Source: a virus
Taxonomy: Duplodnaviria > Caudoviricetes
DNA length: 55,284 bases
IMG/VR virus record: IMGVR_UViG_3300037440_000124
Location: 1-55,284 of that record
Reading direction: 5' to 3' (one strand)
Part shown: in pieces, positions 8,400-15,443 of the stretch
Layout: every line of letters starts with the position of its first letter
Numbering within the stretch: position 1 is the stretch's first letter
The notes under the pieces: model-generated
Told to the model about the DNA's origin: nothing
Databases searched by the model: none
Seen by the model: the letters and a program-made list of their open reading frames with translations, nothing else
Made by a program: the position numbers and the translations under genes

Positions 8400-9092
8400 T
8401 TAAAACAGGTGCCCGACAGGTCTGCCGGCGCGAATCTCTTCCCAGTTCCACTGAGTCCACGCCAGCAAGTGCGCCCATTCCTCGCGGTCTTCGATTCCAT
8501 ACGCCATGCAGCCCTCGTCGTGAACTTCTACCGGCCGCCCACGAATGACCGCCTCCACCGCGACCGACGAGTTCAGGACGTGAAACTTGGCGTCCGTCCA
8601 GTCCGTCTTCACCGGCAACGCAGTCGGATTCGTGCCGGCTGGATGTGGCCGAAAATGAGTCGCTTCGGTGACCGTGGCATACCATTCATCAAGCCGACTC
8701 CAATGTGGACTGTACGGCTCGGTCTGGCCGCACAGGACGATATGCTGATAGCCCATGAGTGGCGGCCAAAGCTCCCTGCCAAGCGCCTCCCAGCGGCTCT
8801 CGTCGGCCCACGGCGGAACACGGTGGTCACCCCTGCGCCCGTGTCCGTTCCACACCAACTGGACGAAATCCGGATCGCCGACGCTGGCCCGATCCACCAA
8901 CAACCAGTCACCTTCGTCGCTTTCGATAGACCGCCAGAAGGTGGTGCCGAACAGTATCGACACATCAGCGATGCGCGTCCGGCTCTCTGTGATATCGTGC
9001 TCTATGCCAAGAGCCTTTAAGCCTTGCGAGAAATCGCCTATCCGCTTCGCCTGCCAAGGGACCGCCTGGTTGTAGTGGACTGCTAGGCCCAT
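8400..9092 (-). CDS. Putative glycosyltransferase (capsule-synthesis KpsC/S-like C-terminus)
   Basis: FRPHP and NSSVAVEAVIRGRPV motifs; within the sugar-modification cluster. Confidence 0.5.
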   Translation of the reverse strand: MGLAVHYNQAVPWQAKRIGDFSQGLKALGIEHDITESRTRIADVSILFGTTFWRSIESDEGDWLLVDRASVGDPDFVQLVWNGHGRRGDHRVPPWADESRWEALGRELWPPLMGYQHIVLCGQTEPYSPHWSRLDEWYATVTEATHFRPHPAGTNPTALPVKTDWTDAKFHVLNSSVAVEAVIRGRPVEVHDEGCMAYGIEDREEWAHLLAWTQWNWEEIRAGRPVGHLF

Positions 9093-9703
9093 CCCGATAC
9101 CTGATGCGGTTTCGGGTTGCCGTGATGCACGGTAATCGGCGCAGAACCCAATCCCCTCATGCGGTGATATTTGAAGGAATCTATATACTCGTCCGGGAAA
9201 AGCCTGATCCCGTCAGGCCATAGCAACTGCGTGATTATTCCTTGATCCCCATGTGTGGTTGCAATCAAATCTTCAGCGCCAGACATATCCTTTTTGCCGC
9301 TCCAGTACATAACTGAGCTATTGATGGTCTGCTCTCTACCGTTATTCATCATAGGGCCGGCAAATCCCGGCTTACGGATCGTAGACGATTGCACAACAGG
9401 GTACGAAAAGTCGTTTCTGGCCCAGAGCTTATTCGGGTCAGTACGTCCCAGGACGACCAGAGGATCGATGTTGCCAGTGATGTTTAGATCAAGGTCGAGA
9501 TACAACACCTCACCGTCGAACATCTCAAGCAAGTGCAGCTTATTGAACCATCCGACTCTACCTTCTGGAAGTTCCTTCTCCGTGATCTCTACGAATTTGC
9601 ACGGCATCGTCAGATGTTCTGAAACCATGTGAAACATTCTGACAACGTACTTGGATCCAATCCCAAGATAGTTTTGCCAATTCAAACAGACTACATTCAG
9701 CAT
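9083..9703 (-). CDS. Glycosyltransferase (GT8-like, GT-A fold)
   Basis: GWFNKL..LYLDLD (DxD)..NSSVMYW..GDQ..HGNPKPH motifs. Confidence 0.78.
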   Translation of the reverse strand: MLNVVCLNWQNYLGIGSKYVVRMFHMVSEHLTMPCKFVEITEKELPEGRVGWFNKLHLLEMFDGEVLYLDLDLNITGNIDPLVVLGRTDPNKLWARNDFSYPVVQSSTIRKPGFAGPMMNNGREQTINSSVMYWSGKKDMSGAEDLIATTHGDQGIITQLLWPDGIRLFPDEYIDSFKYHRMRGLGSAPITVHHGNPKPHQVSGWA

Positions 9704-9709
9704 GGCTCT

Positions 9710-10297
9710 TCAGCGAAGGTTCCTGTAGATCGGCGCAATCGGCATCTGAAATGGTAAATCCTTCACTCGTTTCGCGCGGAAAAACCACATGCGCCTGGGA
9801 GCAATCCCGGACATATACAGGCGTTCGCAGTCCAGGCCGTTCAATTCTGCAAGCTCGCGATAGAACCGATCGTCGGGATAATGCAATCCGTGCCAAGTCC
9901 AATCACCTGGGGCCGGCGTAGTACTGATCAGCACACTGCCGACGTGCATTGCCTCCAGAATGTTCCTCCAGCACGGCTCCTGCGTGTCGACGTGCTCGCT
10001 GGTGCCGATATTCGACACCATGTCGAACGTTCCAAAACCCAGCGGCTTACGCAGATCCTTGACCAGAGAGCCGTGCTGACCGTTCCAGTCAACGCTGACG
10101 TGCCTGAATCCATTCTTCTCGAAGAAGCTTTTGTACGTATACGGTGCGTTGATCTTACAGCCAAGCTCCAGCATCGACTCGCCCTGCAATGGCTGGTACA
10201 GCTCCCACTCAGCCAGTCGATTGTGGAAAGGCCCTAAATCAGATTGACCAGATTGCAAGTTTGCAGCCATCTGCTCCGCCATCGTTGACGCTCTCAA
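9710..10297 (-). CDS. Class I SAM-dependent methyltransferase
   Basis: MLELGC..SVD..DL..FDMV..GTSEHV motifs; start uncertain. Confidence 0.72.
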   Translation of the reverse strand: MRASTMAEQMAANLQSGQSDLGPFHNRLAEWELYQPLQGESMLELGCKINAPYTYKSFFEKNGFRHVSVDWNGQHGSLVKDLRKPLGFGTFDMVSNIGTSEHVDTQEPCWRNILEAMHVGSVLISTTPAPGDWTWHGLHYPDDRFYRELAELNGLDCERLYMSGIAPRRMWFFRAKRVKDLPFQMPIAPIYRNLR

Positions 10298-10760
10298 TGT
10301 AATCCCAGAGGTACGCGCGGAGATCCAGACGGGTGAATTCCTTGTTGCCGTCGTACCAGTCGAACTGTGTTGCTATCAGGTACCTCGACGATTTCCTGAA
10401 TAGCGCAAGCGCCGCCTCAATGCGCGGCGCATCAAGATGATTCAGTACGTGCCTGCACAACAGACCATCTGCTAGCGGCATGGCCTCGTTGGTAATATCG
10501 AGTTTGGTCACTGTTTCTGCTCTAGGAACCAGGTCGAACGGTCGATATTCGACATCCCACTTGATCTGTCGAATCCAGTTCATATCGCCAGCACCGGCGT
10601 CGTTAAGCGTCATAATTCCGTATCGCTTCACAACAGATGGAAGCCATCGGCGAATATTATCTGTGCTTCTCAGCGTTGAACCGTTACCGCAGATTGTTTC
10701 AGGTTTCCCTCCCCTCCAGCCTTTAGCCATGCGCTTAAGCATGGCTTCGTCAGACAACAT
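10239..10760 (-). CDS. Class I SAM-dependent methyltransferase-like protein
   Basis: CGNGST..LNDAGAGDMNW..DIT..LLCRHVLNHL motifs. Confidence 0.68.
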   Translation of the reverse strand: MLSDEAMLKRMAKGWRGGKPETICGNGSTLRSTDNIRRWLPSVVKRYGIMTLNDAGAGDMNWIRQIKWDVEYRPFDLVPRAETVTKLDITNEAMPLADGLLCRHVLNHLDAPRIEAALALFRKSSRYLIATQFDWYDGNKEFTRLDLRAYLWDYIESVNDGGADGCKLAIWSI

Positions 10761-11373
10761 CGGATATGTCCATCGACGGAATCACACCTTCAAGCGCGGA
10801 ATGCGGTGTCACACAAATCAATTCGACCAATCCCTGCTCATGTATCGACCGGTACAGTTCCACCAGTCCGATGTGTACGCCATGCCGTACTTGCACGCTG
10901 GGCCAATGTGCCATTTGTGGCGGATATTCGCCGAAAAAATGACGCGGCGTTGATCCAATTTGTCTAGACCGACCGTCGTAGTCAGATGCGAATTTCAGGT
11001 CGTAGCCCAACAGGAGAATGCTTTTTGCACCTGCTCGATATGCCATCGACACCAGCGAAAAACCTGATCCAAATCCGTGGTGAATCACGTCCGGGTCAGT
11101 CGACAGCCCCTTGGCATTCCGCTCAGCAATCCAGTTAATCCCGAATTCATCAGCCGCCTGTCTGTTAGTCGTCCACTTCTCTGCCGGCAAATCCTTAACT
11201 TGCGTCCAATAATGTGACCACCAGGAATAATTACATCCATATAACAGCGCTGCATCGGGTACCAGTTGAAAAGCGTTATTACACGCGAACAACAAAAAGC
11301 CGCGACTACGCGCGGCATCGATTTGTGCAACGGTCAGTGACGGACCAGTCGCAACACAACAGATAGTGATCAT
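10750..11373 (-). CDS. MptE/MAF-like, GT29-like fold protein
   Basis: VATGPSL..CNNA..SGFSLVSMAY..GAKSILLLGYD..HFFG motifs; paralog of 13485..14168. Confidence 0.6.
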   Translation of the reverse strand: MITICCVATGPSLTVAQIDAARSRGFLLFACNNAFQLVPDAALLYGCNYSWWSHYWTQVKDLPAEKWTTNRQAADEFGINWIAERNAKGLSTDPDVIHHGFGSGFSLVSMAYRAGAKSILLLGYDLKFASDYDGRSRQIGSTPRHFFGEYPPQMAHWPSVQVRHGVHIGLVELYRSIHEQGLVELICVTPHSALEGVIPSMDISDVV

Positions 11374-11555
11374 TCGTCCGGCGGCTTGCCGAGCTTGTTT
11401 ACCATGTAAAACAATTTGATAGCGCCTCTGGGAATCGAGCGTTCACCCGATTCCCAGCGCGCCCACGTTCTCGGAGTAACCTCCACCTGCCTGGCAGCAT
11501 CAGCAAGTGACAGGTTAAGCTCATAACGTAACTTTTTGAGTTCTTCGCCTTTCAT
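11370..11555 (-). CDS. Small XRE-type HTH regulator, similar to the Aca2 N-terminal HTH
   Basis: MKGEELKKLRYELNLSLADAARQVEVTPRTWARWESGERSIP; last gene of the Cas7-like cassette. Confidence 0.8.
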   Translation of the reverse strand: MKGEELKKLRYELNLSLADAARQVEVTPRTWARWESGERSIPRGAIKLFYMVNKLGKPPDE

Positions 11556-11965
11556 ACCTGCCAGACACTACCTAACCCCAACGACCCCGACTGACCCCGC
11601 CTGAACTGACCATGACACATCTTGTCTGCCGCGCCTTAGAGCACCCGACCTAACCTCACAGCGCCTTGCCAGACCGCGCCAAACCTAACCAAATCTGCCG
11701 CAAACTTACCGGACCTAACCGCTCCTAACCATTCCATACACCACCAAGCCGTGCCGGACCGCATCTGCCCCACCAGCACACATCAGACCTCGCCCGTCCA
11801 AAGATCACCCCACCAGATCAAACCATGTCTGCCGCACCGAACCCCTACGGAACGTACCCAACATTACCATCCATACCTCGACACGTCTGCCAAGTCTTAC
11901 CGCACCTAACCGTGCCTTTCCCAGCCACGCCTTGCCGGGCCTGACCATGCCATCCCATGTCTGCC
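11556..11965 (-). ncRNA. Non-coding guide-like array: six units of alternating GGY/NN (5-nt period) bounded by GGCAGAY motifs
   Basis: Boundary motifs begin (minus strand) at 11965, 11891, 11833, 11769, 11699, 11630 and 11562; by hand count 44 of 70 spacer triplets are exactly GGY; 11-14 variable dinucleotides per unit. Confidence 0.85.
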
Positions 11966-11968
11966 TTG

Positions 11969-12436
11969 TCATGCAGCCTTGCGTTTCTTTCGCGAAGCTG
12001 AATTCCGAACTTGACGTATCGCCAGAATAACCGGCTTTGCCATTTGCAAATGAGCGTATCTAGACTCAAGGCGACTGATAAGATCAAGAAACCGACCTTC
12101 GGCTGCCGTAACCTCGTCCTCGGTTGCCTTGAATAACGGCACGTACCTGCCGCGATCTGCCGATTGGATAAAGGCGTTGACCTCGATCACTTCGTTTTGC
12201 GCGTCTACAATCTCGACGTGCAATGATTGAACCATGACACGCGCCTGCACCATTCGAAACTGGTGCGCGGCCTCCGTGTCACTCCACTCGAAGATCGCGT
12301 GAGCCGGTGATCGAATCTTTCGCGCCTCTTTGATAATCCGCTCTGCGGACATATCCGGCAGTGACTCAAGCCATTCGCCGATAGCCTGAGCGTCGCCATT
12401 GAGGTGTCTGCGCCACTTATAGATTCGATTTTTCAA
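11969..12436 (-). CDS. Accessory protein of the Cas7-like cassette (conserved phage hypothetical)
   Basis: AERIIKEAR..SPAHAIFEWSDTEAAHQFR..QAR motif; TTG start with AGGGAGG RBS overlapping the upstream stop. Confidence 0.7.
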   Translation of the reverse strand: MKNRIYKWRRHLNGDAQAIGEWLESLPDMSAERIIKEARKIRSPAHAIFEWSDTEAAHQFRMVQARVMVQSLHVEIVDAQNEVIEVNAFIQSADRGRYVPLFKATEDEVTAAEGRFLDLISRLESRYAHLQMAKPVILAIRQVRNSASRKKRKAA

Positions 12437-13074
12437 GTGGCCTTCCTCCCTTTCTTCGGATTCTTGACGCACCACATCCCAAAGTCACCACCGAATGACT
12501 TGCGACCGAACGGACGAAGTTCGTCAACACCGATCTGTGTTCCGGCTCTCGCCAACAAATTCGCAACATCATTGGCGGATACAAGGTCAGCATCGAATTC
12601 AACTGCGATTTCGCAAGCCCAGGAATCGTATCTGGGACGATTCCTCAGATCCGTTACGCCAGACTCAAGCCTTACCGGACGGGTATCATGCACAGACTTA
12701 CCATGAATCCTTACCAGTGGCGTGCCATCCGTTACATCGAAGCCATCAGGCTTGATGAAGAATGCACCCTTGGCAACTGTCATCGGCAAGCCATCGACAT
12801 TCGAACAAGCACGAATCATCGCCGCTCGAATTGACAAGGCCGGAATACCTTCCCACTTCGCCGTGCTGATGTATTTCGCACCCAGATATTCTGCTTTGTA
12901 ATCCTTCGGTGCGCGCTTCTTCTTCGTTTTGCTCTCAGCCTGCTGCGTTTCCTCCATTTGCTTTCTGGATTTCTCAGAAAACTTATGAAGCATCAGCGGG
13001 CTAACGCCTTCCAGCCTGAGCTTGACTACCTGAAAGTTAGGCGGCTGGATTTCAATACGGGTTTTCTTAATCAT
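12433..13074 (-). CDS. Stand-alone Cas7/RAMP-like RNA-binding protein
   Basis: N-terminal beta strand LRLEGVSPLMLH; GIPALSIRAAM (cf. RAMP IPgSSlKGalR); C-terminal Gly-rich loop IGVDELRP..GGDFG; ATG at 13074 with GGAG RBS. Confidence 0.75.
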   Translation of the reverse strand: MIKKTRIEIQPPNFQVVKLRLEGVSPLMLHKFSEKSRKQMEETQQAESKTKKKRAPKDYKAEYLGAKYISTAKWEGIPALSIRAAMIRACSNVDGLPMTVAKGAFFIKPDGFDVTDGTPLVRIHGKSVHDTRPVRLESGVTDLRNRPRYDSWACEIAVEFDADLVSANDVANLLARAGTQIGVDELRPFGRKSFGGDFGMWCVKNPKKGRKAT

Positions 13075-13121
13075 CGGTCGATCTCCATACGCCACGACCC
13101 TACGCCATGGCTTCAACCCTA

Positions 13122-13150
13122 ACTATGACCAATGGTCAGAGCATAGTCAA
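13122..13150 (-). promoter_or_regulatory. Sigma70-like promoter with overlapping palindromic operator
   Basis: TTGACT-17 nt-CATAGT; inverted repeat TGACCA-A-TGGTCA at 13126-13138 and ACTATG..CATAGT at 13122-13147. Confidence 0.65.
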
Positions 13151-13156
13151 TATCTT

Positions 13157-13360
13157 TCACACAAATTCAGGCGGCTTCGGATACGGCTCGCGCAACTGAT
13201 AGGCTCGTCGCACCTTCAGATGCCAGTCACGCACCGCGGCGTCAATCTCCTCACCTTTCTTGGCGCACGGCTCGCACAGACCGCCACTAAAATGCGCCTC
13301 CTGAGACTCGATGGCTTTTTTCTGAGTCCCGCAACGATCGCAAACGTAAATAATAGCCAT
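13157..13360 (-). CDS. Small hypothetical zinc-binding protein
   Basis: CDRC and CEPC pairs; AGAGGA RBS. Confidence 0.55.
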   Translation of the reverse strand: MAIIYVCDRCGTQKKAIESQEAHFSGGLCEPCAKKGEEIDAAVRDWHLKVRRAYQLREPYPKPPEFV

Positions 13361-13372
13361 TGATAATCCTCT

Positions 13373-13564
13373 TTATCGCTTTCGTGCGGTCTTTTTCTTT
13401 ACCCCTTTCAGGGACAGAACCGGGAGACCCTTGTCCGCGTATCCCTCTCTGAGTGCCTTGCGGGCCATGCTTTCGGAAATCTGCTCAGGCACCTTGTACC
13501 TGCCCTTCGACAGAAAACCGCCCTGTATTGGCCAGTCTTGTGTCAGTTTTATGGTGTAACTCAT
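13373..13564 (-). CDS. Small basic hypothetical protein
   Basis: GAGGAG RBS before the ATG at 13564; overlaps the upstream gene. Confidence 0.45.
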   Translation of the reverse strand: MSYTIKLTQDWPIQGGFLSKGRYKVPEQISESMARKALREGYADKGLPVLSLKGVKKKTARKR

Positions 13565-14168
13565 GTTGCTCCTCGAGTGCCTGTTCAAAGGTCATCTTTG
13601 GAAAGCACTGCAACGCGCTGACAGGTGTGGCATTCACGATCCTGATATGCGCCGGCAGCTTTTTCGCCGCCACGTCAAAGTGCTTTGCAAATTCAGTGTA
13701 ACGAGTACCTGATTCTAATTCCCTCGGATACTCACCGAAGAAATGCGATTTCCCGCCGGTCTTCTGCATGTCGAAGCCGATCAGGATGATGTGCTCACAG
13801 CCGAACAGGATCGCCAGGTTGATCGCCTGAAATCCCGAGTTGCTGCCGTAGTTGATAACCGATGGATCAAGTGAAAACGTGGAACCATGAGCGCCTTGCA
13901 CACAATGCACTTTCCACTTCTCGTGTGCCTCTGTCTTGTCGTTCGATGAATATCTTCGACCTTCGTGGGTGCTCCACTTCTCACCATCGAACGCTCCATC
14001 GTGATACTTCCACCATCTCGGCTCACAGCCATACAGAACGTCCGCCCATGGGATCAAGCGATAGGCATCCTGTACAACAATGATCGGATGATGACGAACC
14101 GGTACCAAAGAAGGCCCCGGCGCGGCCACGATACATGACCGCCACCGGGGAGAAACAACCTCAAGCAC
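13485..14168 (-). CDS. MptE/MAF-like, GT29-like fold protein (paralog of 10750..11373)
   Basis: VAAPGPSL..NSGFQAINLAILFGCEHIILIGFD..HFFG..NATP.SAL. Confidence 0.6.
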   Translation of the reverse strand: MLEVVSPRWRSCIVAAPGPSLVPVRHHPIIVVQDAYRLIPWADVLYGCEPRWWKYHDGAFDGEKWSTHEGRRYSSNDKTEAHEKWKVHCVQGAHGSTFSLDPSVINYGSNSGFQAINLAILFGCEHIILIGFDMQKTGGKSHFFGEYPRELESGTRYTEFAKHFDVAAKKLPAHIRIVNATPVSALQCFPKMTFEQALEEQHELHHKTDTRLANTGRFSVEGQVQGA

Positions 14169-14171
14169 CGA

Positions 14172-15443
14172 TCAAGTATCGGCGAGTTTCAGTAGCTTCA
14201 AACTGTCATTATTAAGAACAGTTCCGCCGTAGCGCCGACGCACATAGAAGCGAACGTAACCAGGATTGGTCACGGACTCGCTCTGTATCATCAGTTCCGT
14301 ACGGCTGGTCAGCAGGTAAGCCCGTGCAAAATCACCGAAGGCAATAGCAAAGCCATCGCCCGTGGTGGGATTGCTCAGGTTCTCCCAGGTGAATACCTCG
14401 TAGCCCAACAGACGGTCAGGCTGGCCGACCTGCAGACTCGGTTGCCAGAGATACTGGCCGTTCGTGTCTTTCAGCTTCCGCATGAAGCCCTGCGTCACCG
14501 TGTTCATTGCGAACTTGGCGTTGCTTCGATAACGCGGGTTCAACGCATACACCAGGTCGATGACGTTATCCGCATTGATTGCCTGCGGAGAACTGGTGAC
14601 CGCGATGTACTCGTAAGCATCAGCATCACGAAGCGGAGATGCATGGTCATCGGTTGATACAGGCGCAGTATCGGTCATACCAGTCGGCTTGTCGGAACCG
14701 TCGCCGCTGTAGATCGCCAACGCCAGAGCATTCGACATGCCCTCCGAGATGTCGTTGACCAGCCAGTCCGATACATTGAACTGGATATCCTGGATCGACC
14801 ATTCGGAAACCTGCGGGTACGCATAAAGCTCGCCCCAGGTCGGCTTACGGCTCCTCAGGTTCGGCGTTCCGGTTGCAGACCTGGTACCGGCTTCCGCCAC
14901 CCACCCCGACGTTCCGCCATGAATCGACACCAGCTCCTGATAGTCGCTCGTGCCAACGCGAATGTTCTTCACGTTGTTCACGACCTGCGACAACTTCAGA
15001 AGCAGAGCATCGACCGAGGCACCGATTTCCTTCGGCAGGGCAAAACCACCGCCAGGGTTGCTTCCGATGGTCACGTCTTTCTGTGACAGATCGCGCAACT
15101 TGCCATTGATGGTGCTGTCCTGGAACCCGACACGCAGTCCCTTGAAGAACATGTCGTTGTATTCCTTACGAGCGATCTCCTCCGGTGTTCCGCGCGGACG
15201 GTCGGCAAGCGCTTCCAGCATCTCGATGCGCGCCTGTTTCTTCGCCTCTTCGGCCTCCATGGCCTTAAGCTTCGCCTGGGACGAGTCCAGATCCTTGCTG
15301 ATCTTCGTCAGCTTCTGCTCGAGTTCCTGAGTAAGGGTCTGATTGCCCTTCTCCATGGCCTCAAGGCGTTCGTCGTTGGTCTTCTGAAACTCGGTAACCG
15401 TCTCACCGAGCTTCTGCATCTCCTCTACAATGGGATTTCCCAT
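14172..15443 (-). CDS. Major capsid protein, HK97 family
   Basis: Coiled-coil delta domain; GGFALP, GDGSDKPTG, LKDTNGQYLWQP, LLGYEV, FGDF motifs. Confidence 0.96.
   Translation of the reverse strand: MGNPIVEEMQKLGETVTEFQKTNDERLEAMEKGNQTLTQELEQKLTKISKDLDSSQAKLKAMEAEEAKKQARIEMLEALADRPRGTPEEIARKEYNDMFFKGLRVGFQDSTINGKLRDLSQKDVTIGSNPGGGFALPKEIGASVDALLLKLSQVVNNVKNIRVGTSDYQELVSIHGGTSGWVAEAGTRSATGTPNLRSRKPTWGELYAYPQVSEWSIQDIQFNVSDWLVNDISEGMSNALALAIYSGDGSDKPTGMTDTAPVSTDDHASPLRDADAYEYIAVTSSPQAINADNVIDLVYALNPRYRSNAKFAMNTVTQGFMRKLKDTNGQYLWQPSLQVGQPDRLLGYEVFTWENLSNPTTGDGFAIAFGDFARAYLLTSRTELMIQSESVTNPGYVRFYVRRRYGGTVLNNDSLKLLKLADT

What the first reader, a model, noticed from the sequence alone, without database searches (positions are those of the whole stretch)
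11563..11965. NN dinucleotides decode as codon positions 1+2 of conserved phage genes (wobble-skipping code)
Adding one free base after each NN allows these peptides (ambiguous residues chosen by me): U1 IIMHPKVWNTYAKL, U2 VEIMNWTPGSA, U3 IFLGDFRELVLG, U4 APTFGMIYAYPKA, U5 LYFALKAEYRANA, U6 NVIHHGHGSGYSL. Each resembles a motif in a late protein of this phage. Inference: the target is NN-x-NN-x in phase with codons, so third-position synonymous changes cannot escape and one guide could cover many phages. The guides have the same sense as the mRNA, so they would pair with the DNA template strand, implying DNA rather than mRNA targeting. Single matches are only modest statistically; the strength is that most units agree.
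Basis: partly seen in the sequence, partly recalled or inferred. Interest (0 to 1): 0.95.

Follow-up and report, generated by a model that had tools for sequence, protein, structure and literature searches.

The report
Phage VIPR wobble-skipping guide array

Summary
The array at 11563-11965 (minus strand) is real. It has six units of GGCA + 10-14 GGYNN pentamers, downstream of a Cas7-like RAMP gene and a partner gene and upstream of a small HTH gene. The module recurs in 12 of 15 viral and 16 of 24 metagenome loci of the protein's relatives.

It is a VIPR system (Vipr + vap + vrRNA; bioRxiv 10.64898/2026.04.26.720920, June 2026). That preprint already reports the 1-nt skip rule, wobble-position skipping and DNA targeting.

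I tested the code on this array.
- Units U2, U4 and U6, read as NN-x, have perfect or near-perfect in-frame sense matches in IMG/VR phage contigs: 22/22 in 13 contigs, 24/24 in 3, 24/26 in 3.
- The targets are HK97-type capsid genes and MptE-like genes.
- In a cross-validated control only gap 1 gave sites of at least 80%. Gaps 0, 2, 3, 4 and shuffles gave none or almost none.
- U1, U3 and U5 have no significant target.
- In the phage's own genome only U6 beats chance (20/26). No self site reaches 80%.
- Targeted sister phages lack the cassette.

Verdict: observation largely confirmed, interpretation supported, new member of a known kind. This scan has noted VIPR on other DNA many times (457 notes).

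The parts
12433..13074 (-). vipr gene: 213-aa stand-alone RAMP (Cas7-like) protein
   Evidence: There is no Pfam, NCBIfam or PADLOC hit. It matches phrog_4652. The AF2 model has pLDDT 80. All 7 Foldseek PDB hits with E<=1e-3 are Csm3/Cas7 chains of type III-A or type VII complexes, TM about 0.4. It has 238 homologues, with a conserved C-terminal Gly-rich loop, GGDFG. A profile of the family hits the 201-aa frame of the phiSUSP1 VIPR locus at E 3.8e-7.
11969..12436 (-). vap-like partner gene (155 aa from the TTG at 12436)
   Evidence: It lies directly after vipr in all 10 related loci aligned. It matches phrog_15946. The AF2 model has pLDDT 85, with no PDB fold match at E<=1e-3.
11892..11965 (-). 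vrRNA unit U1: GGCA + 14 pentamers; NN reads IIMHPKVWNTYAKL
   Evidence: Parse. No target was found. The core scan gave 22 hits with best extension 6/12. The own-genome best is 17/28, at chance.
11834..11891 (-). vrRNA unit U2: 11 repeats, one of them 4 nt (GGAT); NN reads VEI(I/M)N(C/W)TPGSA
   Evidence: The core scan gave 56 hits: 13 at 22/22, 8 at 21/22 and 14 at 20/22. All encode (V/I)EIINCTPGSA near the C-terminus of MptE-like proteins.
11770..11833 (-). vrRNA unit U3: 12 pentamers; NN reads IFLGDFRELVLG
   Evidence: The best outside match is 21/24, VLLGDFRELVIG, at the GDF motif of a protease-capsid fusion gene in L100/L123. This is not significant: about 1 such extension is expected among 48 core hits.
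11700..11769 (-). vrRNA unit U4: 12 guide pentamers + GTTTGC; NN reads APTFGMIYAYPK
   Evidence: It matches 24/24 in L068, L070, L076, L209 and L210, and 23/24 in L074. All sites are in frame in Phage_capsid genes.
11631..11699 (-). vrRNA unit U5: 13 pentamers; NN reads LYFALKAEYRANA
   Evidence: There is no significant target. The core scan gave 3 hits, best 21/26, in a terminase gene. At the homologous capsid site it scores 19/26 in L210 and 16/26 in the phage's own capsid.
11563..11630 (-). vrRNA unit U6: 13 repeats, one of them 4 nt (GGTC); NN reads NVIHHGHGSGYSL
   Evidence: It matches 24/26 in L132, L141 and L149, and 22/26 in L154. All sites are in frame in MptE-like genes.
11558..11562 (-). 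terminal GGCAG that closes the array, 2 nt before the ATG of the HTH gene
   Evidence: Read directly from the sequence. The same arrangement occurs in related loci.
11370..11555 (-). 61-aa HTH protein, the fourth constant part of the cassette
   Evidence: HTH_31 at E 6.5e-9, with a weak Aca2_YdiL hit. A homologous small HTH gene is visible in the ORF lists of 9 of the 14 related loci listed there. It lies after the array, or before it in L007.
10750..11373 (-). own 207-aa MptE-like gene, downstream neighbour of the cassette; holds the non-targeted homologues of the U6 and U2 sites
   Evidence: The U6 site is 11053-11091 (DVIHHGFGSGFSL, 20/26). The U2 site is 10795-10827 (VELICVTPHSA, 15/22). 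The protein is 71% identical to the targeted L132 protein.
14172..15443 (-). own HK97-type major capsid gene; holds the non-targeted homologues of the U4 and U5 sites
   Evidence: Phage_capsid at E 1.4e-55. The U4 site is 14811-14846 (KPTWGELYAYPQ, 17/24). The U5 site is 14517-14555 (16/26).

Best explanation
The locus 11370-13074 is a VIPR (Viral Interference Programmable Repeat) cassette. It consists of a small RAMP protein (Vipr), a partner protein (vap-like), six guide RNAs (vrRNAs) and an HTH regulator.

Mechanism as published for VIPR, inferred here:
- One Vipr protomer binds each pentamer of a guide, hides GGY and presents NN.
- The filament binds double-stranded DNA in which successive NN are read with one base skipped.
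- Binding represses transcription.

Shown here:
- The skipped base falls on the codon wobble position.
- U4 reads APTFGMIYAYPK of HK97-type capsid genes, in phage contigs and two alphaproteobacterial MAG contigs.
- U2 and U6 read two motifs of the MptE-like gene that lies just downstream of the cassette. They match the alleles carried by sister phages that lack the cassette.
- The phage's own alleles differ by amino-acid changes and stay below 80% match.

The cassette is most likely a weapon against co-infecting or resident rival phages. U1, U3 and U5 have no demonstrable target. They may be decayed, or aimed at phages not in the collections.
For: Grammar and periodicity.

Conservation of the module vipr-vap-array-HTH:
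- It is present in 12 of 15 viral loci (the 3 without one are the shortest loci held, 3.3-4.1 kb) and 16 of 24 metagenome loci.
- Unit lengths are quantised as 4+5n.
- In L007 an apparent terminator-like hairpin followed by a T run (read by eye, no terminator scan run) follows the array on the G-rich strand.

Protein:
- RAMP fold.
- Homology to the phiSUSP1 Vipr frame, which is flanked by 1+3 GGYNN tracts as the paper describes.

Targets at gap 1:
- U4: 3 of 17 core hits extend 8/8 and 1 extends 7/8. About 2.6e-4 perfect extensions are expected, my estimate at 0.25 per base.
- U4's full 24-base pattern has 2 exact hits in GTDB genomes, a Stappiaceae MAG and a Neomegalonema MAG, both in capsid genes.
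- U2: 13 of 56 core hits extend 6/6.
- U6: 3 of 22 core hits reach 24/26.

Controls and properties of the sites:
- The cross-validated control shows an excess only at gap 1.
- The skipped bases vary, the frame is NN = codon positions 1-2, and the sites are on the sense strand.
- NN composition over 1094 pentamers from 25 arrays tracks codon position 1-2 usage: r 0.78, against -0.52 and -0.19 for the other two phases.
- No self site reaches 80%.
- 0 of 99 target loci carry a Vipr homologue. In L141, L152 and L154 the two MptE-like genes abut, with no cassette between them.

Published mechanism:
- bioRxiv 10.64898/2026.04.26.720920: Results, Discussion and Methods sections 18, 20, 26, 27 read.
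- bioRxiv 10.64898/2026.04.26.720927 and 10.64898/2026.10.15.759431: abstracts only.
Against: - Three of six units (U1, U3, U5) have no target above chance, either in IMG/VR with one 8-NN core each or in the cross-validated set.
- Each unit was scanned with a single core.
- The many U2 hits are homologous genes, not independent events.
- 96 clean guides of relatives showed almost no excess against my 1.5-Mb locus pool: at least 90% match for 2 real against 0 shuffled at gap 1, but also 2 against 0 at gap 3.
- An earlier pooled test on about 188 kb showed no excess.
- The array lacks the roughly 40-nt 3' tail described for type II vrRNAs.
- The partner protein has no recognisable fold.
- There is nothing here on RNA expression, RNP formation or DNA binding. 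No RNA run holds the stretch.
- The match of the family profile to phiSUSP1 covers only 48 of 215 positions.
Confidence: 0.9

Rival explanations
1. The guides regulate the phage's own late genes (capsid, MptE-like) through partial matches. On this reading they act as a built-in timer, not as a weapon against other phages.
For: The best or near-best own-genome sites of U4, U5, U6 and U2 lie in the phage's own capsid and MptE-like genes, at the homologous motifs. U6's own site (20/26) beats 499 of 500 shuffles.
Against: The own sites reach only 62-77% (16/26, 15/22, 17/24, 20/26). Perfect matches exist in other phages. The paper reports that perturbing NN pairing abolishes silencing and that no self-targets of at least 80% occur in VIPR contigs.
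Confidence: 0.05
2. The RNA is a protein-wrapping scaffold. On this reading it works like the TRAP-binding RNA with triplets and 2-nt spacers, and the NN are meaningless spacers. This was my own first guess.
For: The 5-nt period has a constant triplet and a variable pair, and unit lengths are quantised.
Against: The NN strings of three units match coding sequences perfectly over 22-24 specified bases, and only at gap 1. In 3 orthologous unit pairs of L010/L011 the NN changed at 3 of 60 positions, against 9 of 30 for the Y position.
Confidence: 0.01
3. The guides act on RNA (mRNA or antisense transcripts) rather than on DNA.
For: Cas7-family backbones of type III systems target RNA. The fold matches are to Csm3.
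Against: At all sites of at least 90% (36, 6 and 3 for U2, U4, U6) the guide has the sense of the coding strand, so it cannot pair with the mRNA. dsDNA binding and silencing from either strand are shown for VIPR.
Confidence: 0.03
4. The matches are chance, produced by free choice of parse and ambiguous residues.
For: Matches of 80% to a 13-NN guide are expected hundreds of times in a collection of IMG/VR size (my estimate; see full report). The hits for U1, U3 and U5 are of that kind.
Against: The perfect extensions for U2, U4 and U6 exceed expectation by orders of magnitude. They fall in frame in homologous genes, and they are absent at other gaps and in shuffles.
Confidence: 0.01

Closest known systems
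VIPR systems, with the type II systems of Escherichia phage SUSP1 and a Pseudomonas fulva prophage as the experimental examples (bioRxiv 10.64898/2026.04.26.720920; structures in 10.64898/2026.04.26.720927; phage-satellite competition in 10.64898/2026.10.15.759431)
   Same: - A small stand-alone RAMP protein with a partner gene.
- Guide RNAs of 9-16 GGY/NN pentamers.
- Targets read with one base skipped, and that base is the codon wobble position.
- Targets lie in rival phages, with no self-targets of at least 80%.
- The family profile hits the phiSUSP1 Vipr frame.
   Different: - There is no roughly 40-nt 3' tail and no spacing between guides. Units abut and are punctuated by GGCA(G).
- A small HTH gene is a constant fourth part.
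- The partner protein has no recognisable fold.
- The targets are a capsid gene and an MptE-like gene rather than satellite genes or lysis-lysogeny regulators.
- All sites found are on the sense strand.
- The Vipr protein was too distant for tblastn to list SUSP1: the 36 records were Mycobacterium 28, Gordonia 5, Pseudomonas 2 and Cyanophage 1.
'Staggered' vrRNA arrays mentioned in the same preprint (legend of fig. S18: neighbouring vrRNAs overlap by 1 nt, so the end of one is the start of the next)
   Same: Units follow each other without spacer. The G of GGCAG doubles as the first G of the next pentamer, which makes the punctuation 4 nt long and unit lengths 4+5n.
   Different: I saw only the legend. 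The figure and data S4 are not held, so I cannot say whether this clade or its type number is the one shown.
Class 1 CRISPR-Cas backbones (Csm3/Cas7 of type III, type VII and type IV)
   Same: They share the RAMP fold, and one protomer binds each short stretch of guide RNA.
   Different: The period here is 5 nt, not 6. Here 2 of every 5 guide bases pair, against 5 of 6 in CRISPR backbones. Pfam and PHROGs named no cas genes among the ten ORFs around the cassette. PADLOC and NCBIfam gave no cas hit for the three cassette proteins. There are no CRISPR repeats.

Membership tests
VIPR | Vipr protein: a small stand-alone RAMP (single RRM core, glycine-rich loop, thumb) outside any CRISPR-Cas locus | tested here: met
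   The AF2 model has pLDDT 80. All 7 of 7 Foldseek PDB hits with E<=1e-3 are Csm3/Cas7 chains. The GGDFG loop is conserved. No cas or defence family was hit. I did not inspect the thumb residue by residue.
VIPR | Homology to an experimentally studied Vipr (phage SUSP1) | tested here: met
   Profile A1 against KT454805.2 gives E 3.8e-7 over profile positions 144-191, in a 201-aa open frame. Four GGYNN tracts, 1 upstream and 3 downstream, lie on the same strand. The match is partial.
VIPR | Adjacent vrRNA made of tandem GGY/NN (YNNGG) pentamers, 9-16 per guide | tested here: met
   There are six units of 11-14 repeats. The same grammar occurs in 12 of 15 viral and 16 of 24 metagenome loci.
VIPR | vap accessory gene in the operon | tested here: inconclusive
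   A conserved 155-aa partner gene follows vipr. I could not assign it to vap1-6 because supplements and figures are not held, and it has no fold match.
VIPR | Natural targets follow the 1-nt skip rule, with the skipped base on the codon wobble position | tested here: met
   Met for 3 of 6 guides. No target was found for the other 3.
VIPR | No self-target with at least 80% NN match | tested here: met
   The best own-genome scores are 17/28, 16/22, 16/24, 17/24, 16/26 and 20/26, so the maximum is 77%.
VIPR | vrRNAs are expressed, co-purify with Vipr, and the RNP binds dsDNA and represses transcription | not testable with these tools
   No RNA run holds the stretch. Binding needs bench work.
VIPR type II (SUSP1 clade) | Each vrRNA ends in a conserved structured 3' tail of about 40 nt | tested here: not met
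   Units abut with only GGCA(G) between them. The phiSUSP1 tracts end in a shared extension. So this is not type II. It is possibly the 'staggered' architecture.
CRISPR-Cas | CRISPR repeat-spacer array plus cas genes (adaptation and effector modules) | tested here: not met
   There are no repeats of CRISPR type. Pfam and PHROGs named no cas family among the ten ORFs around the cassette, and PADLOC and NCBIfam gave none for the three cassette proteins.

The most novel reading that the evidence does not exclude
The cassette behaves as a selfish, linkage-protecting element.
- It sits between two MptE-like genes. Two of its guides (U2, U6) silence the cassette-free allele of its own downstream neighbour in sister phages. 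Others aim at rival capsid genes.
- The carrier's own alleles are protected by amino-acid replacements at exactly the guide sites. At the U6 site these are N to D, H to F and Y to F. At the U2 site they are I to L, N to C, C to V and G to H.
- If so, in mixed infections VIPR would favour its own linkage block, as homing endonucleases do through marker exclusion. It would also force non-synonymous change in structural and glycosylation genes.
- The tail-less, GGCA-punctuated array with an HTH gene would then be a distinct VIPR type aimed at morphogenesis genes.
Probability: 0.35. Interest if true: 0.55.

Novelty: new member of a known kind. Interest (0 to 1): 0.3.

Why it matters
The 'wobble-skipping' code itself is no longer new. 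It was published as VIPR in 2026, with biochemistry, structures and phage assays.

This window adds independent evidence, from sequence alone, that the rule holds in a distant, uncultivated clade with a different array layout.
- Only gap 1 works.
- Matches are in frame and the skipped base varies.
- One guide covers 31 distinct target sequences.

It also gives a concrete natural-target picture for that clade. The guides aim at capsid and MptE-like genes of sister phages that lack the cassette, including the allele of the gene next to the insertion site. The carrier escapes its own guides by amino-acid changes. This bears on how VIPR cassettes spread and on how they shape phage structural-gene evolution. 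Similar neighbour-allele targeting was noted by this scan on other DNA (e1-6100478, e1-6059674; I did not check those).

Tried and rejected
- TRAP-like scaffold idea (my first reading). Dropped after the perfect gapped matches.
- Rfam. No family in 10500-13000 except two sub-threshold chance hits.
- blastn of 11300-12500 against phages. No match.
- Single-protein scan of viral contigs. Nothing found. An alignment was needed.
- Genome-contig scan with the Vipr alignment. 88 pattern hits, none confirmed.
- Own-genome and small pooled tests. No excess at any gap. Taken alone these would have wrongly refuted the code, because the targets are simply not in these sequences.
- Relatives' guides against my locus pool. 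Essentially null.
- Class-level genome search with the full U2 pattern at up to 2 mismatches. 1 of 401 genomes matched, against 0 for the reversed-pattern control. This is too weak to serve as a control.
- Handles search in the two MAGs. One 3-mismatch hit.
- U5's 21/26 hit in a terminase gene (L041/L043) and U3's 21/24 hit in a capsid fusion gene. Judged not significant.
- Link of the L010 protein to the paper's seed accessions. The L010 protein is UniRef100_A0A0F9TP30, not one of the five seeds named.
- RNA evidence. No RNA holder was listed, and read laying was not used.
- Tools not used: complex prediction, the search of protein representatives and the protein-atlas search.
- The supplements of the three preprints (tables, data S3/S4, figures) could not be seen. 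They may already list this clade, its type and its targets.

Full report
WHAT IS THERE

The window is a complete 55,284-bp IMG/VR virus record with terminal repeats. Between 11556 and 11965 lies a C-rich, non-coding tract (C 175, A 101, T 64, G 63 of 403). It has a strong 5-nt period: autocorrelation of C is 0.35, 0.37 and 0.32 at lags 5, 10 and 15.

All neighbouring genes are on the minus strand. Read on that strand, the tract is six units. Each is GGCA followed by 11-14 pentamers of the form GGYNN, and a last GGCAG lies 2 nt before the ATG of a 61-aa HTH gene.

Its example pattern is exactly the NN string of the unit at 11631-11699. All six decoded peptides are reproduced. Four read in strict register, and two (U2, U6) need one repeat of 4 nt.

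THE MODULE IS CONSERVED

Upstream lie a 213-aa protein (12433-13074) and a 155-aa partner (11969-12436). Neither has a Pfam, NCBIfam or PADLOC family.

The 213-aa protein has 238 homologues. With an alignment of 24 of them I fetched 15 viral loci and 24 metagenome loci.
- A G-rich 5-nt periodic array lies downstream in 12 of 15 viral loci. The 3 without one are the shortest loci held (3.3-4.1 kb).
- It lies downstream in 16 of 24 metagenome loci. The 8 without it are short contigs, and 4 of the 24 repeat viral loci.
- The grammar is the same everywhere: GGCA(G) plus n pentamers, with unit lengths 44, 49, 54, 59, 64 and 69.
- The order protein-partner-array-HTH is kept. Only L007 has the HTH gene before the array. 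An apparent terminator-like hairpin followed by a T run (read by eye, no terminator scan run) lies after it, which fixes the transcribed strand.
- The cassette sits in different contexts: after capsid, portal, terminase or helicase genes.
- No relative was confirmed in GTDB species genomes.

THE PROTEIN

An AF2 model (pLDDT 80) finds only Csm3/Cas7 chains among its 7 PDB matches with E<=1e-3, at TM about 0.4. The partner's model (pLDDT 85) matches nothing.

IT IS ALREADY IN PRINT

A full-text search led to bioRxiv 10.64898/2026.04.26.720920. I read Results, Discussion and Methods sections 18, 20, 26 and 27.

VIPR systems consist of a Vipr RAMP protein, a vap gene and vrRNAs of 9-16 GGY/NN pentamers. 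According to the preprint:
- the NN specify a dsDNA target with one base skipped;
- the skipped base generally falls on the codon wobble position;
- targets lie in competing phages;
- no self-target reaches 80%;
- seven types exist, among them 'staggered' arrays whose guides overlap by 1 nt.

Two further preprints give the cryo-EM mechanism and phage-satellite competition. In the mechanism, each protomer sequesters GGY and presents NN, forming an R-loop triplex. I read only their abstracts.

A profile of my family hits the phiSUSP1 genome at E 3.8e-7, in a 201-aa frame flanked by 1+3 GGYNN tracts. This matches the published locus description.

DOES THE CODE HOLD FOR THIS ARRAY?

(a) Own genome. 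With the array masked and 500 shuffles per unit, only U6 stands out: 20/26 at 11053-11091, reached by 1 of 500 shuffles. The others are at chance (earlier versions).

(b) IMG/VR. I scanned one core of 8 consecutive NN at gap 1 per unit, then scored the rest of the guide at each hit.
- Core hits: U5 3, U1 22, U4 17, U3 48, U6 22, U2 56.
- U4: 3 hits extend 8/8 and one extends 7/8. The other 13 extend at most 3/8.
- U2: 13 hits are 22/22, 8 are 21/22 and 14 are 20/22.
- U6: 3 hits are 24/26.
- U1, U3 and U5: best 22/28, 21/24 and 21/26, with extensions as expected by chance.
- My estimate at 0.25 per base: an 80% match to a 13-NN guide is expected hundreds of times in a collection of about 1e11 positions. 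So only near-perfect matches count.

(c) GTDB genomes. U4's full 24-base pattern has 2 exact hits.

(d) Cross-validated control. Each unit was scored on loci fetched with other units' cores (2.2-3.1 Mb, both strands).
- Sites of at least 80% at gap 1: U2 5, U4 3, U6 3.
- At gaps 0, 2, 3 and 4: 0 for every unit.
- 40 shuffles per unit: mean 0-0.03.
- U1, U3 and U5: 0 throughout.

(e) Properties of the sites of at least 90% (36, 6 and 3 for U2, U4, U6).
- NN falls on codon positions 1-2 of long open frames.
- The guide has the sense of the coding strand.
- The skipped base varies at 11 of 11, 10 of 12 and 10 of 13 positions.
- U2 covers 31 distinct sequences.

(f) Composition. Over 1094 clean pentamers from 25 arrays, NN composition follows codon position 1-2 usage of the window's genes (r 0.78). 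The other phases give -0.52 and -0.19, and the reverse complements give -0.05, 0.44 and -0.44. The residual beyond base composition is not significant (r 0.41, p 0.11).

WHAT IS TARGETED

U4 reads APTFGMIYAYPK in Phage_capsid genes that are 33-37% identical to the phage's own capsid. Two of these genes are in Stappiaceae and Neomegalonema MAGs, which hints at an alphaproteobacterial host range.

U6 (NVIHHGHGSGYSL) and U2 (VEIINCTPGSA) read two motifs about 264 nt apart in MptE-like genes. The L132 target protein is 71% identical to the window's own 207-aa MptE-like protein, whose gene lies directly after the cassette.

The own alleles read KPTWGELYAYPQ (17/24), DVIHHGFGSGFSL (20/26) and VELICVTPHSA (15/22). 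They differ by amino-acid changes, not only at the wobble position.

None of 99 target loci has a Vipr homologue. In L141, L152 and L154 the two MptE-like genes abut where the window carries the cassette. So the guides hit cassette-free sister phages.

WHAT IS NOT SUPPORTED

U1, U3 and U5 have no significant target. U3 and U5 look like capsid motifs: the GDF motif, and a motif at the site of the window's own LVYALNPRYRSNA. But their scores (21/24, and 19/26 outside the genome) are within chance for the space searched.

'Each resembles a motif of this phage' is therefore only partly true. The resemblance is to homologous sites that the guides do not match well.

DIFFERENCES FROM THE PUBLISHED TYPE II

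- There is no 3' tail.
- The units abut and are punctuated by GGCA.
- The HTH gene is constant.
- The partner protein is of unknown fold.
- The targets are morphogenesis genes.

Whether this is one of the seven published types cannot be told without the supplements.

CAVEATS

- I used one core per unit.
- The targets are homologous to each other, so hit counts are not independent events.
- There are no RNA or binding data.
- Relatives' guides showed no clear excess in my small pools.

VERDICT

This is a genuine VIPR locus. This scan has noted VIPR on other DNA before: 457 notes in at least 368 genomes.

Noticed in passing
window 8400-14168: A cluster of glycosyltransferase-, methyltransferase- and two MptE-like (phrog_4603) genes lies between the capsid gene and the rest of the morphogenesis genes. 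The VIPR cassette (11370 to about 13480) is inserted between the two MptE-like genes. In sister contigs these two genes abut.
   Followed up: partly
25 arrays (window and L002-L038): Over 1094 GGYNN pentamers, N4 is G 35, A 30, T 18, C 17 % and N5 is T 29, A 29, G 21, C 21 %. NN usage correlates with codon position 1-2 usage (r 0.78). This is a composition signature that guides derive from, or are kept matched to, coding sequence.
   Followed up: yes
L010 2969-3850 against L011 4149-5070: Two related arrays of about 17 units share units by descent, with whole pentamers or whole units gained and lost. In 3 same-length unit pairs the mismatches by pentamer position were 3/30, 3/30, 9/30, 3/30 and 0/30. 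The Y position changes fastest and the NN slowest. The numbers are small.
   Followed up: partly
window 11556-11562 and related loci (e.g. L020, L021, L023): The last GGCAG of the array lies 2-3 nt before the ATG of the HTH gene. The unit heads in the window (GGCAGACATGG) resemble that start region. This may mean that unit duplication included the HTH start, or that processing and translation start are coupled.
   Followed up: no
L100 6083-7813 and L123 5846-7576: A 577-aa fusion of a prohead protease (Peptidase_S78) and a major capsid protein (Phage_capsid) in two IMG/VR contigs. It carries VLLGDFRELVIG, the closest match to U3 at 21/24.
   Followed up: partly
GenBank phages: tblastn finds 29-39% identical homologues of the Vipr protein, all annotated as hypothetical, in 36 records: 28 Mycobacterium, 5 Gordonia and 2 Pseudomonas phage records, plus Cyanophage Cy-LDV1. 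I did not check whether they have GGYNN arrays.
   Followed up: no
L017 1290-1900: The closest relative of the window's Vipr (83% identity) has an array of about 10 units with quite different NN strings. One of them matches 22/24 to a site in my target-locus pool, reading SAAAGEALVPEI. I did not check which gene holds that site.
   Followed up: no
window 13157-13360: A small minus-strand ORF (67 aa) lies between the upstream MptE-like gene and vipr, inside the inserted segment. I did not analyse it.
   Followed up: no
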